A DNA stretch of 32,000 nt from Propionibacteriaceae bacterium (lineage in GTDB: Bacteria > Actinomycetota > Actinomycetes > Propionibacteriales > Propionibacteriaceae), in NCBI GenBank assembly GCA_031256725.1, contig JAIRQE010000009.1:1-32000 (forward strand), given 5' to 3'. Made by a program: the position numbers and the translations under genes. Below are positions 30,006 through 32,000 of this stretch, in pieces; position 1 is the first letter of the stretch; every line of letters starts with the position of its first letter. The notes beneath the pieces were generated by a model. The model searched no databases, was not told the origin of the DNA, and saw only the letters and a program-made list of their open reading frames with translations.

Positions 30006-30746
30006 TTATTCTTTGTCGTTTATAGTGACGGGTGTATTGAGTAGCTTTAAGTCAGCACTTGATACAAAACCAGTGGAAATAGCCCATTCAACCAAGCATG
30101 CTCGGCGACCACTCGCATGGGTATGCACTCCACCTCTCATACCCTCGACGCCCAATTTGTCGAGTTTCGAACAGACGTTATCGATCTTCTTCTCAAAACG
30201 TTTCACTGGCCAACCGATCCGGGCAGCCGCAGATGCGTTGGTTGGTATCCTCGCAACACCTAGGCCTTCACGCAGCAACATGGGTTCGGCTAAAGCAAGA
30301 ACCGCCAGATGCTGAGCTTGGGTCCAGCCGATTTCACGTACTGTCGTGTCCCCATCCGAATCGATATGCGGTATGGCCACTTGCCATCGGGGCTCATCAT
30401 TGAGCAAGGTCACCCGATAATCACAAGGACCTGCCGTGAACACCACCTCAACTCGATTAAAAACCACTGGCAGACGTGATGATGGACCGAGCCATGCTTG
30501 GAGACCAGTCACTTGATCATGGACTGTAGCTCCCAATCCTGTGCCAATGTTGGCAAGCCACCAGAATTCATTTTCAAAAGATATCCGTAAGAACCTTCGA
30601 TGAAGGTAAGGATTATTGTCAAGACATAGATCCGCATCACGACCAATATCGAAGACTCGATCTGGACTCAGAGAAACTCTCTGTCCCTCGTATTCCACGA
30701 TAAGACCTGAGATCTCTTCAATACCATCAATGTCGACTATGCTCAT
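30006..30746 (-). CDS. FHA domain protein with C-terminal helix-turn-helix-like region
   Basis: ATGA overlap with the kinase stop at 30743-30746; an ATG at 30755 is also possible. The N-terminal FHA-like pattern is VFDIGRDADLCLDNNPYLHRRFLRISFE...ANIGTGLGATVHD; GR is present but SxxH is not evident. The C-terminal IPTNASAAARIGWPVKRFEKKIDNVCSKLDKLGVEG resembles a LuxR/GerE-type HTH. Confidence 0.72.
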   Translation of the reverse strand: MSIVDIDGIEEISGLIVEYEGQRVSLSPDRVFDIGRDADLCLDNNPYLHRRFLRISFENEFWWLANIGTGLGATVHDQVTGLQAWLGPSSRLPVVFNRVEVVFTAGPCDYRVTLLNDEPRWQVAIPHIDSDGDTTVREIGWTQAQHLAVLALAEPMLLREGLGVARIPTNASAAARIGWPVKRFEKKIDNVCSKLDKLGVEGMRGGVHTHASGRRACLVEWAISTGFVSSADLKLLNTPVTINDKE

Positions 30747-32000
30747 CCTGCACATCCTTGTGCATCAGGAGAACCATTCCCATGTCGCAGAATCTTGACC
30801 TCGATACACACCATGGTCTGCCCTTCTTCAAGTTTGATAGTGGCTTGTGGAAGACTGGCGATTGAGGGAGTGACGTCCTCGGCTCCAATAATCACCCAAC
30901 GGTACTTGTCTCCATCCTGGGGATCAGGGTTGGTCCACGTGAATTCCGCTACACCTCTTTGCGCGTCTACAACCCCTGTAACATCAACAGGGGTTGGTGG
31001 TATTGCCGCACCCACTGGATCCTGAGGATTAGCGACAGTGGCTGTCGGCGATTCCGCCACACCAACGGGATCTCTGGGTTTACCAGTCATAGCGATCACT
31101 GCAATCACACCGCCAATGACCAGCAGAACAACTACACCGATGATGATTGGCCACGGGATTGTTTTTGGTTTAGGTTCAGTGGTCGACCAAGATTGAACAG
31201 GCGGAGCAGTAGGTACTCCTTCCGATTCCTCTAAGGAGCCTTTCGCCCTCCAAAGAGTCTCCTCAACCGCATCTGTTGGGCCAGTACCAGGGCGACGAAG
31301 CTGAGTTCTATCGATAGGAGCAGGTGGGCCACTATACATTTCCACTGGTGGTTTAGGCACACTGGGTTGTGGCGCAGTAGTACTCCAACCGCCAGGAGCT
31401 GTTGAGGGTGTTGATGCTGTGGGATCAATGATGGATATGGGTCTTAGACTGGTACCAACAATGTCATCATCATCACTATCCAGACCCTGCGAGGTTGAAT
31501 CATCAAAGATATCCATCTGAGTTGGTCTGAGACTAAGCTCGAGCTCTACTTCTCGTAAAGCCAAACCGAATGCCTTCATGGAAGGGTACCGTGACTGTGG
31601 CGATTTCGCCATGGCAGTCGCTAAGACTTGATCAAGGGAAGCAGGTGCATCGACCCGCCCCAGTGGTACATATGGCTCATTTCTGATTCGATGGATCAGC
31701 GCATGTGGTTGCTTGTTCCCTTCCCCTGGGATTTCAAACGGAGCCCGACCTGTCAAGAGCGCATATATTGTAGCTGCAAGCGACCAGATGTCGGATTGTC
31801 GCGAAGGTCTCGGATTACTATCAAATGATTCCGGCGGACTCCATGGAATCGACAACCCCTGTGCCTTACCTCGCTCAGCCTCGGCATTGGTCATCGCGAT
31901 TCCAAAGTCTCCCAAAACAGGACGACCGGAACGATCAACAAGAATATTCGCTGGCTTAATGTCTCGATGCAGAATTCCTTGCGAAGATGTCTCCGCCCCA
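30743..32000 (-). CDS. Membrane Ser/Thr protein kinase, N-terminus cut by the window edge
   Basis: The minus-strand frame is open to position 32000. Translation reads ...LHRDIKPANILVDRSGRPVLGDFGIA...PWSPPE...DIWSLAATIYALLTGRAPF, so the catalytic loop, DFG and APE-like motifs are intact. The track's start at 31915 is a TTG inside the kinase domain. A disordered linker follows, then one TM helix (~31088-31153) and a ~110-aa extracytoplasmic domain with two Cys. Confidence 0.9.
   Translation of the reverse strand, partial: GAETSSQGILHRDIKPANILVDRSGRPVLGDFGIAMTNAEAERGKAQGLSIPWSPPESFDSNPRPSRQSDIWSLAATIYALLTGRAPFEIPGEGNKQPHALIHRIRNEPYVPLGRVDAPASLDQVLATAMAKSPQSRYPSMKAFGLALREVELELSLRPTQMDIFDDSTSQGLDSDDDDIVGTSLRPISIIDPTASTPSTAPGGWSTTAPQPSVPKPPVEMYSGPPAPIDRTQLRRPGTGPTDAVEETLWRAKGSLEESEGVPTAPPVQSWSTTEPKPKTIPWPIIIGVVVLLVIGGVIAVIAMTGKPRDPVGVAESPTATVANPQDPVGAAIPPTPVDVTGVVDAQRGVAEFTWTNPDPQDGDKYRWVIIGAEDVTPSIASLPQATIKLEEGQTMVCIEVKILRHGNGSPDAQGCAG

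What the first reader, a model, noticed from the sequence alone, without database searches (positions are those of the whole stretch)
30743..32000. Active membrane kinase with the same topology as the T7SSb pseudokinase EssB
Established knowledge: EssB/YukC of T7SSb has a cytoplasmic pseudokinase fold, a single TM helix and an extracytoplasmic domain, and it contacts the EssC FHA region.

Seen directly: the protein here has a cytoplasmic Hanks kinase domain with intact HRDIKPAN, DFG and SPPE motifs. It then has a long disordered linker, one TM helix and a ~110-aa outside domain (EFTWTNPDPQDGDKYRW...CIEVKILRHGNGSPDAQGC). It sits convergent to an essC that has a canonical FHA domain. No EssB gene is visible in the window.

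Inference: this kinase may be the functional counterpart, or an ancestral-like catalytically live version, of EssB. It could recruit EssC through autophosphorylated Thr residues in its linker.
Basis: inference. Interest (0 to 1): 0.65.

Follow-up and report, generated by a model that had tools for sequence, protein, structure and literature searches.

The report
Sensor kinase wired to type VII secretion
The gene is a real, catalytically intact membrane Ser/Thr kinase, but it is best read as the kinase of the recently described actinobacterial Esr threat-sensing operon that sits next to type VII secretion genes, and not as a live version of the structural protein EssB.

Summary
Window 30743-32000 (-) encodes residues 133-550 of a 550-aa Hanks kinase with intact motifs, a Pro/Ser/Thr-rich linker, one TM helix and a 113-aa outside region.

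The full contig shows the kinase is gene 9 of an 11-gene same-strand run: giant Ig-repeat surface protein, MoxR, DUF58, transglutaminase, Zn-ribbon-FHA protein, PP2C phosphatase, an EsrG-like FHA protein, the kinase, a further FHA-fold protein, and a membrane protein. This matches the gene content of the Esr pathway (Wang et al., bioRxiv 2026), which was shown to regulate Esx secretion.

The link to the secretion ATPase is real. In 52 of 71 related genome loci the kinase lies just upstream of an FHA-bearing EccC on the same strand. The phosphothreonine-binding residues of that FHA domain are invariant in 51 of 51 sequences.

EssB membership fails. There is no YukC Pfam match, all catalytic motifs are intact, and the outside domain is an FnIII beta-sandwich, not all-alpha. 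Kinase-less FHA-EccC loci also exist.

Garrett et al. (2024) already noted an EssB-like topology for active kinases in T7SSc and proposed a kinase-to-FHA link for T7SSd. This is a new member of a known kind, with moderate interest.

The parts
30743..32000 (-). C-terminal 418 of 550 residues of the membrane Ser/Thr kinase (EsrE-like). The N-terminal 132 residues lie beyond the window edge.
   Evidence: Pfam Pkinase E=5.5e-33 on the full protein.
31946..31969 (-). Catalytic loop HRDIKPAN (residues 143-150). DFG lies at 31901-31909 and SPPE at 31829-31840.
   Evidence: At least 95% conserved in 79 kinase relatives.
31154..31528 (-). Pro/Ser/Thr-rich linker (residues 290-414). It contains Thr292 and the GT(S/R)(L/V)R motif with Thr315 and Arg318 (31439-31456).
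31085..31153 (-). Single transmembrane helix, about residues 415-437.
   Evidence: The only hydrophobic segment of the protein by Kyte-Doolittle scan.
30746..30988 (-). Extracytoplasmic FnIII-like beta-sandwich (residues 470-550) with invariant Trp487, Cys530 and Cys548.
   Evidence: AlphaFold2 pLDDT ~97. The top 50 Foldseek PDB hits are predominantly FnIII-type domains and none is EssB/YukC.
30006..30746 (-). 246-aa FHA-fold protein with a five-helix C-terminal domain. Its start overlaps the kinase stop codon (ATGA).
   Evidence: It lies between the kinase and EccC in most related loci.
29334..29981 (-). 215-aa LRV_2-domain protein with two C-terminal hydrophobic segments. It is the last gene of the kinase-strand run and was found only in this contig among the loci sampled.
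24901..29337 (+). EssC/EccC-type ATPase of 1478 aa: an extra N-terminal domain (residues 1-95), an FHA domain (107-194, about 25219-25482), a TM region and FtsK/SpoIIIE ATPase domains.
19900..24865 (+). Secretion-side genes upstream of essC: WXG100 (19900-20193) and four unannotated ORFs of 198, 286, 494 and 568 aa. The 568-aa ORF has a weak T7SS_signal match and a hydrophobic region.

Best explanation
The gene encodes the signalling kinase (EsrE-like) of an Esx-linked Esr pathway in an uncultured Propionibacteriaceae-like actinobacterium.

**Shown by sequence**
- It is an intact Hanks kinase with one TM helix and a small FnIII-like outside domain.
- It is co-oriented, with short or overlapping gene junctions, with MoxR, a DUF58 protein, a transglutaminase, a PP2C phosphatase and three FHA-fold proteins.
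- Across many genera it lies directly beside an EccC whose N-terminal FHA domain keeps all phosphothreonine-binding residues.

**Inferred mechanism**
- A surface signal is sensed through the giant Ig-repeat protein and the MoxR/vWA/transglutaminase module, possibly helped by the kinase's own FnIII domain. This activates the kinase.
- The kinase phosphorylates Thr residues in disordered regions of the EsrG-like FHA proteins, and possibly in its own linker (Thr292, Thr315).
- FHA domains read these marks, including the one on EccC. This switches secretion, or substrate choice, after translation.
- The PP2C phosphatase resets the system.
For: **Operon content**
- The contig extension shows this run: Big_9/cadherin/fn3 giant protein, MoxR (bpMoxR E=1.3e-10), DUF58, TgpA_N plus Transglut_core, Zn-ribbon-FHA, PP2C, a 487-aa protein with a C-terminal FHA, the kinase, the FHA-fold 246-aa protein, and LRV_2.
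- The same order occurs in a Propionibacteriaceae MAG and in Microbacterium. It also occurs in nearly all of 80 species-level genome loci from at least 16 genera.
- An EsrG-like ORF ends within 200 bp of the kinase start in 65 of 78 loci.

**Link to EccC**
- 54 of 71 loci carry an EccC homologue downstream. 52 are on the same strand within 3 kb, and 53 align across the FHA region.
- Reciprocal search: 44 of 58 loci, or 14 of 27 after de-replication, carry the kinase upstream.
- G127, R128, S142, H145, S161, N163 and G164 of the EccC FHA are invariant in 51 of 51 sequences.
- The EccC FHA is closest to the operon's own FHA proteins (hhalign E=3.6e-15 and 1.6e-8).

**Kinase conservation**
- Catalytic residues are conserved in at least 95% of 79 kinases.

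**Literature**
- PMC13622651 defines Esr with the same component classes.
- It reports that 40% of 3502 Esr loci adjoin esx genes, and that Esr is prevalent in Actinomycetales and Propionibacteriales.
- It reports EsrG-EccC fusions, infection-dependent Thr phosphorylation of EsrG1, and post-translational control of a subset of Esx substrates by Esr2.
Against: - No S. odontolytica Esr sequence was available, so orthology to EsrE rests on gene content and order, not on direct comparison.
- The N-terminal domain of the EsrG-like protein shows no detectable similarity to PP2C by profile comparison. The 'pseudophosphatase' feature is therefore unconfirmed.
- The transglutaminase is split into two overlapping ORFs on this contig. 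The sensing arm might be defective, or the assembly might carry an error.
- Here the secretion block is inverted relative to the common collinear order.
- No phosphorylation or interaction data exist for this locus.
- The Esr work is a single preprint.
Confidence: 0.78

Rival explanations
1. One reading: the kinase is a structural core subunit of this secretion machine. It would be the functional counterpart, or a catalytically live ancestor-like form, of the pseudokinase EssB/YukC, docking on the EssC FHA domain through its own phosphorylated linker.
For: - Same topology: kinase fold inside, one TM helix, a domain outside.
- Tight, widely conserved adjacency to FHA-EccC.
- No EssB, EccB, EccD or MycP in the window's cluster.
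- The EccC FHA has invariant phosphothreonine-binding residues, and the kinase linker has near-invariant Thr292 and Thr315.
- YukC does contact the YukB FHA2 domain (PMC12637312).
- Garrett et al. list membrane kinases as core parts of T7SSc, d and e.
Against: - No YukC Pfam hit at E<=1.
- All catalytic motifs that YukC lacks are intact and conserved.
- The nearest solved structures are active kinases.
- The outside domain is FnIII-like, versus all-alpha in YukC.
- A PP2C partner and several FHA proteins in the same operon point to a reversible signalling module.
- 9 of 27 de-replicated FHA-EccC loci have no kinase within 10 kb.
- About a quarter of kinase loci have no EccC within 10 kb downstream.
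- Microbacterium homologues of the kinase sit next to EccD-EccB-MycP.
- In S. odontolytica, loss of the Esx-linked Esr2 sensor leaves EsxA/EsxB export nearly intact.
Confidence: 0.1
2. It is the kinase component TsdD of a T7SSd system as defined by Garrett et al. 2024. That system is actinobacterial and made of a WXG100 protein, an FHA-bearing ATPase, a membrane kinase, a small TM protein (TsdH) and a large Ig-repeat protein (TsdI). This overlaps the best explanation more than it excludes it.
For: - An actinobacterial host, a WXG100 protein, an FHA-ATPase with conserved phosphothreonine-binding residues, a membrane kinase with a conserved active site, and a giant Ig-repeat protein are all present.
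- EssC scores higher against the Firmicutes EssC model than against the EccCa/b models. This agrees with the reported position of TsdC.
Against: - The outside region of TsdD is described as extensively helical, whereas here it is an FnIII beta-sandwich.
- TsdI has a C-terminal TM helix. The giant protein here has none in its last 227 residues.
- No TsdH-like small TM protein was identified.
- T7SSd as described has five components and does not include MoxR, DUF58, transglutaminase or PP2C.
- No TsdD sequence was available for comparison.
Confidence: 0.07
3. It is a general or host-signal-sensing kinase unrelated to secretion. It could be a housekeeping PknB-type kinase, or a Pkb2-type kinase of the bifidobacterial PFNA cluster that senses host cytokines. 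Its position next to essC would then be coincidental.
For: - The PFNA cluster (pkb2, fn3, aaa-atp, duf58, tgm, prpC, hyp, fha) has the same component classes and is discussed without any secretion link.
- About a quarter of sampled kinase loci show no EccC within 10 kb downstream.
Against: - The window has a separate PknB/PASTA kinase at 6087-8075.
- Adjacency to FHA-EccC recurs in at least 16 genera, most of them soil or environmental, where host cytokine sensing is implausible.
- Reciprocal linkage was found.
- There is an experimental Esr-Esx link in Schaalia.
Confidence: 0.05

Closest known systems
EsrE kinase of the Esr (epibiont sensing and response) pathway of Schaalia odontolytica, especially the Esx-linked Esr2 cluster (Wang et al., bioRxiv 2026, PMC13622651)
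   Same: - Same component classes in one cluster: Ig-repeat surface protein, MoxR, vWA/DUF58, transglutaminase, Ser/Thr kinase, PP2C phosphatase, and FHA output proteins with disordered regions and zinc ribbons.
- Same taxonomic range (Actinomycetales and Propionibacteriales).
- Same adjacency to esx genes.
- FHA fused to EccC.
   Different: - No direct sequence comparison was possible.
- The beta-propeller of EsrA and the pseudophosphatase domain of EsrG are unconfirmed here.
- An additional, highly conserved FHA-plus-helical protein lies between the kinase and EccC.
- The secretion block is inverted in this contig.
- The host is an uncultured Propionibacteriaceae-like organism.
TscD/TsdD/TseD membrane kinases of T7SSc, d and e (Garrett et al., Microlife 2024, PMC11217815)
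   Same: - A membrane Ser/Thr kinase with a conserved active site, a topology like the one the authors compare with EssB (for TscD), and a position next to a T7SS ATPase.
- For T7SSd and T7SSe the ATPase FHA keeps its phosphothreonine-binding residues.
- The authors already propose, for TsdD, that phosphorylation controls FHA-mediated interactions.
   Different: - The outside region there is predicted helical, whereas here it is FnIII-like.
- The T7SSd description lacks MoxR, DUF58, transglutaminase and PP2C.
- TsdI has a C-terminal TM helix, which is absent from the giant protein here.
EssB/YukC pseudokinase of T7SSb (PMC9600267, PMC12637312)
   Same: Kinase-like fold in the cytoplasm, one TM helix, an outside domain, and an FHA-bearing EssC partner.
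   Different: - YukC lacks the G-loop, VAIK, catalytic and Mg-binding motifs and cannot bind ATP. Here all of these are intact.
- YukC's outside domain is all-alpha. Here it is a beta-sandwich.
- The YukB FHA domains lack phosphothreonine-binding residues and bind independently of phosphorylation. Here those residues are invariant.
- There is no sequence-family match.
Pkb2 of the Bifidobacterium PFNA cluster (PMC8430577)
   Same: A kinase clustered with an FN3 protein, a MoxR ATPase, DUF58, a transglutaminase, a PrpC phosphatase and an FHA protein. Pkb2 is reported to autophosphorylate and to phosphorylate the MoxR protein.
   Different: - Gene order differs: the kinase comes first in PFNA.
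- PFNA is interpreted as host-cytokine sensing, with no secretion link discussed.
- No sequence comparison was done here.

Membership tests
Active Hanks-type Ser/Thr kinase | Gly-rich loop, VAIK Lys, alphaC Glu, HRD catalytic loop with Asn, DFG, and an APE-like motif | tested here: met
   GHGGFADV (19), AIK (39-41), E59, HRDIKPAN (143), DFG (163) and SPPE (186). All are at least 95% conserved in 79 kinase relatives. Pfam Pkinase E=5.5e-33. Nearest solved structures are StkP, PknB, PknE and PknA. Catalytic activity itself was not tested.
EssB/YukC (T7SSb pseudokinase) | Sequence membership of the YukC/EssB family | tested here: not met
   No YukC family hit on the full-length kinase at E<=1, nor in any other ORF scanned.
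EssB/YukC (T7SSb pseudokinase) | Degenerate kinase motifs and no ATP binding | tested here: not met
   All motifs are intact and conserved. YukC lacks them (PMC9600267).
EssB/YukC (T7SSb pseudokinase) | All-alpha-helical extracellular domain | tested here: not met
   The model is a seven-strand beta-sandwich with pLDDT ~97. The top 50 Foldseek hits are predominantly FnIII-type domains and none is EssB/YukC.
EssB/YukC (T7SSb pseudokinase) | Topology: cytoplasmic kinase fold, single TM helix, outside C-terminal domain | tested here: met
   One hydrophobic segment, at about residues 415-437, lies between the kinase domain and the C-terminal domain.
EssB/YukC (T7SSb pseudokinase) | Physical contact of the kinase fold with the EssC FHA domain | not testable with these tools
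   No complex prediction or experiment was available. Only genomic adjacency was shown.
Esr pathway kinase EsrE (PMC13622651) | Encoded in a cluster with MoxR, a vWA-type protein, a transglutaminase, a PP2C phosphatase and FHA output protein(s) | tested here: met
   The order is conserved in 80 genome loci.
Esr pathway kinase EsrE (PMC13622651) | Cluster encodes a secreted filamentous Ig-repeat protein with a terminal beta-propeller (EsrA) | tested here: inconclusive
   An 1849-aa protein with Big_9, cadherin-like and fn3 domains lies upstream. Only its last 227 residues were readable, and they have no TM helix. The signal peptide and propeller were not seen.
Esr pathway kinase EsrE (PMC13622651) | EsrG-type output: N-terminal pseudophosphatase, disordered region, C-terminal FHA | tested here: inconclusive
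   The 487-aa protein has a structured N-terminal part, a long low-complexity middle, a zinc ribbon and a C-terminal FHA. Profile comparison of its N-terminus with PP2C was not significant.
Esr pathway kinase EsrE (PMC13622651) | Genomic linkage to esx genes, in Actinomycetales or Propionibacteriales | tested here: met
   Nearest relatives are Propionibacteriaceae MAGs. Linkage to EccC is shown.
Esr pathway kinase EsrE (PMC13622651) | Sequence orthology to S. odontolytica EsrE1/EsrE2 | not testable with these tools
   No Schaalia sequences were obtained, and the preprint's supplements are not held.
T7SSd kinase TsdD (PMC11217815) | Membrane kinase with a conserved active site next to an FHA-ATPase that keeps its phosphothreonine-binding residues, in Actinomycetota | tested here: met
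T7SSd kinase TsdD (PMC11217815) | Extensively helical extracytoplasmic C-terminal region; partner TsdI has a C-terminal TM helix; small TM protein TsdH present | tested here: not met
   The outside domain is an FnIII-like beta-sandwich. The giant protein's C-terminus has no TM helix. No TsdH-like gene was recognised.

The most novel reading that the evidence does not exclude
In this widespread kinase - FHA protein - FHA-EccC unit, the kinase may not act only through soluble FHA outputs. It may also dock directly on the N-terminal FHA domain of EccC through its own near-invariant phosphorylated linker threonines (Thr292 in a TxxD context, Thr315 in GT(S/R)(L/V)R). It would then be a phosphorylation-switchable analogue of the EssB-EssC contact, gating assembly or substrate choice of a secretion machine that shows no other known membrane core genes nearby.
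Probability: 0.15. Interest if true: 0.6.

Novelty: new member of a known kind. Interest (0 to 1): 0.33.

Why it matters
How the Esx-linked Esr pathway changes secretion is an open question that the preprint's authors name themselves.

This locus and its roughly 130 relatives give concrete, testable handles:
- an invariant phosphothreonine-binding pocket on EccC;
- near-invariant threonines in the kinase linker;
- a highly conserved, unnamed FHA-plus-helical protein between the two genes;
- natural kinase-less variants.

It also shows that the bifidobacterial PFNA cluster, T7SSd and Esr have the same component classes and may describe overlapping gene sets. No sequence comparison with PFNA or T7SSd proteins was possible here.

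Tried and rejected
- **Exact-sequence look-up.** The 249-aa ORF starting at 30755 was not on record. The 246-aa form starting at 30746 was found.
- **Profile comparisons, both not significant.**
  - EsrG-like N-terminus against PP2C: probability 0.2%.
  - EssC residues 1-100 against the YukD-like domain of Microbacterium EccD: E=0.09, although aligned in register.
  - The pseudophosphatase and ubiquitin-like readings therefore stay unconfirmed.
- **Family searches on the 246-aa protein.** Pfam and NCBIfam gave nothing for it or for its 41 relatives. The LuxR-like helix-turn-helix I saw by eye in its C-terminal domain is not supported.
- **AesB-like motif.** I looked by eye for the GYVNP motif in the 494- and 568-aa ORFs and did not find it. 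This is my reading, not a formal search.
- **Preprint supplements.** They are not held.
- **EssB comparison.** The kinase domain was therefore compared with EssB by sequence only.
- **Housekeeping-kinase reading.** Rejected, because a separate PknB/PASTA kinase is present at 6087-8075.
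Full report
**1. The observation**

Translating window 30743-31999 on the minus strand gives 418 residues ending in a stop codon. The fragment matches Pfam Pkinase at E=4e-19.

An exact-protein look-up of the neighbouring gene found a Logan contig (locus L001). It is identical to the window over the 11.9 kb compared. On it the kinase is complete at 550 aa, so the window holds residues 133-550.

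The full protein has these features:
- Kinase motifs: G-loop GHGGFADV (19), AIKVL (39), HRDIKPAN (143), DFG (163) and SPPE (186).
- A Pro/Thr/Ser-rich stretch at residues 290-421.
- One hydrophobic segment at about residues 415-437.
- A C-terminal region of about 113 residues.

EssC (24901-29337, +) has an FHA domain and FtsK/SpoIIIE domains. None of the 29 ORFs scanned in the window and its extension matches the YukC/EssB family.

Two details need correcting. Two genes lie between the kinase and essC:
- an FHA-fold gene at 30006-30746, whose ATG overlaps the kinase stop codon;
- an LRV_2 membrane-protein gene at 29334-29981.

**2. What surrounds it**

Beyond position 32000 the kinase proves to be the ninth gene of an eleven-gene, same-strand run:
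1. an 1849-aa protein with Big_9, cadherin-like and fn3 repeats;
2. a MoxR ATPase, which also hits the bpMoxR model of MoxR-vWA-beta-propeller ternary systems;
3. a DUF58 protein;
4. and 5. TgpA_N and transglutaminase core, split into two ORFs here;
6. a 249-aa protein made of a zinc ribbon, a proline-rich region and a canonical FHA domain;
7. a PP2C phosphatase;
8. a 487-aa protein with a structured N-terminus, a long low-complexity middle, a zinc ribbon and a C-terminal FHA;
9. the kinase;
10. the 246-aa protein;
11. the LRV_2 protein.

The kinase therefore sits in a classical reversible phospho-signalling module, with a phosphatase and several FHA readers of its own.

**3. Relatives**

Full-length homologues at 41-81% identity over about 99% of the length occur in Propionibacteriaceae MAGs, Microbacterium and Herbiconiux. 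Bifidobacteriaceae MAGs have relatives whose best local match covers about 60% of the query, although they align through the outside domain as well.

A 20-sequence alignment shows these invariant positions:
- the catalytic residues;
- Thr292, Thr315 and Arg318 in the linker;
- Trp487, Cys530 and Cys548 in the outside domain.

A scan of one genome per species returned 80 loci from at least 16 genera. A tblastn panel showed MoxR, DUF58, transglutaminase, FHA, PP2C and the EsrG-like gene upstream of the kinase in nearly all of them.

Downstream linkage to the ATPase:
- 71 loci, including four from earlier look-ups, had at least 3 kb downstream.
- 54 of these have an EccC homologue.
- 52 of these lie on the same strand within 3 kb.
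- The usual gap is 750-860 bp, which holds only the homologue of the 246-aa gene.
- 53 of the 54 align across the FHA region.

The convergent arrangement in the window is therefore a local inversion of a widespread collinear unit: kinase, FHA protein, FHA-EccC. Four Microbacterium loci instead continue with EccD, EccB and MycP.

I also ran the reciprocal search, using the EccC N-terminus against metagenome contigs:
- 44 of 58 loci had the kinase and the 246-aa gene directly upstream.
- After de-replication at 90% identity this is 14 of 27 clusters.
- 9 clusters have MoxR/DUF58/transglutaminase directly abutting EccC with no kinase within 10 kb.
- 4 clusters have neither.

The linkage is strong in both directions but not obligatory.

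**4. Domain-level tests**

- **Outside domain.** It was modelled at pLDDT ~97 as a seven-strand beta-sandwich. Its best 50 PDB matches are predominantly FnIII-type domains, and no EssB/YukC chain appears.
- **246-aa protein.** It was modelled at pLDDT 87 as an FHA fold plus a five-helix domain. Its best matches are Rv1747 FHA-1, OdhI and GarA. It has no Pfam or NCBIfam family, yet it is 47-70% identical across families, more conserved than the kinase.
- **EccC FHA.** In 51 kinase-linked EccCs the phosphothreonine-binding signature (G127, R128, S142, H145, S161, N163, G164) is invariant. By profile comparison this FHA is closest to the operon's own FHA proteins.
- **EssC family.** It scores best against the Firmicutes EssC model but stays below every curated cut-off.
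- **Kinase domain.** Its nearest solved structures are the active kinases StkP, PknB, PknE and PknA.

**5. Comparison with what is known**

Three bodies of literature bear on this.

*EssB/YukC.* YukC contacts the FHA2 domain of YukB through its alphaC helix (PMC12637312). PMC9600267 adds that:
- it lacks the G-loop, VAIK, catalytic and Mg-binding motifs;
- it cannot bind ATP;
- it has an all-alpha outside domain;
- it binds FHA domains that lack phosphothreonine-binding residues.

Apart from topology, the defining features tested here fail.

*Garrett et al. 2024 (PMC11217815).* They described T7SSc-j. [quoted passage not shown] For the actinobacterial T7SSd they propose that the kinase TsdD could link phosphorylation to interactions of the ATPase FHA domain. 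The present kinase differs from TsdD in its beta-sandwich outside domain. The giant protein differs from TsdI in lacking a C-terminal TM helix.

*Wang et al. 2026 (PMC13622651).* They define the Esr pathway in Schaalia odontolytica with these parts:
- EsrA, an Ig-repeat filament with a beta-propeller;
- MoxR and vWA proteins;
- the transglutaminase EsrD;
- the kinase EsrE;
- the phosphatase EsrF;
- the FHA output EsrG.

They show infection-dependent Thr phosphorylation of EsrG1. They report that 40% of 3502 Esr loci adjoin esx genes, and that Esr is prevalent in Actinomycetales and Propionibacteriales. They note fusions of EsrG to EccC. They find that the Esx-linked Esr2 pathway controls export of a subset of substrates after translation. 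The gene content, order, taxonomy and Esx linkage found here match this description. The bifidobacterial PFNA cluster has the same component classes (PMC8430577).

**6. Most likely mechanism**

*Shown:*
- an intact, conserved kinase;
- a partner phosphatase;
- three FHA-fold proteins in the same run, plus an FHA on EccC with an intact binding pocket;
- conserved adjacency.

*Inferred:*
- A surface signal activates the kinase.
- The kinase phosphorylates threonines in disordered regions of the EsrG-like proteins, and perhaps in its own linker.
- FHA domains, including that of EccC, read the marks and alter secretion.
- PP2C resets the system.

Whether the kinase touches EccC directly is open. 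I give that reading about 15%.

**7. Verdict**

There is a link to secretion and a plausible phospho-FHA logic, but the kinase is not an EssB counterpart. This is a new member of a recently described kind. Interest is moderate-low for novelty. The locus family does offer clear experimental handles on an open mechanistic question.

**Limits**
- No Schaalia or Olsenella sequences were available for direct comparison.
- The N-terminus of the giant protein was not recovered.
- Two profile comparisons were inconclusive.
- No complex modelling was possible.

Noticed in passing
window 30006-30746 (-): A 246-aa protein with an FHA fold plus a five-helix domain and no Pfam or NCBIfam family. It is 47-70% identical across Propionibacteriaceae, Bifidobacteriaceae and Micrococcales, which is more conserved than the kinase. 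It is the only gene between the kinase and FHA-EccC in most loci. It keeps the GR and His of the FHA signature, but Pro replaces the canonical Ser.
   Followed up: partly
L086, L104, L114, L141, L145, L148, L151, L153, L160: A kinase-less variant. MoxR, DUF58 and transglutaminase directly abut an FHA-EccC, and no kinase, PP2C or 246-aa homologue lies within 10 kb. This covers 9 of 27 de-replicated metagenome clusters.
   Followed up: partly
L004, L005, L017, L082 (Microbacterium), about 12.4-16.4 kb: The same operon ends in the kinase and the FHA protein, then continues on the same strand with EccD, EccB and a MycP-like subtilase instead of EccC. The Esr-type module is therefore also joined to ESX-type membrane core genes.
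   Followed up: partly
L001 3159-4133 and 4102-5349 (beyond window position 32000): The transglutaminase is split into two overlapping ORFs (TgpA_N 324 aa and Transglut_core 415 aa). Relatives have one ORF of 758-825 aa. This is either a frameshift or an assembly error.
   Followed up: no
window 24901-25185 (+), EssC residues 1-95: A conserved extra N-terminal domain lies ahead of the FHA domain (consensus MRIKLTL..VTAD.TATV.DVA). It looks ubiquitin-like by eye. Profile comparison with the YukD-like domain of EccD aligned in register but was not significant (E=0.09). T7SSd was reported to lack any ubiquitin-like protein.
   Followed up: partly
window 6087-8075 (+): A separate PknB-type kinase with three PASTA repeats. 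This is the ordinary cell-wall kinase of the organism and is distinct from the kinase in the finding.
   Followed up: yes
window 29334-29337: The 3' ends of essC (+) and the LRV_2 gene (-) overlap by 4 bp, which leaves no room for terminators between the convergent genes. The LRV_2 gene was found only in this contig among the loci sampled.
   Followed up: no
window 21641-24865 (+): Two large unannotated ORFs lie upstream of essC. The 494-aa ORF has a helical N-terminus and a long Pro/His/Glu-rich region. The 568-aa ORF has a weak T7SS_signal match and a hydrophobic region at about residues 332-373. Both are candidate secreted substrates and are poorly conserved among related loci.
   Followed up: no
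L001 5346-6095 (beyond window position 32000): A 249-aa protein made of a zinc ribbon, a proline-rich region and a canonical FHA domain. It is a second EsrG-like output, and its FHA is the closest relative of the EccC FHA (hhalign E=3.6e-15).
   Followed up: partly
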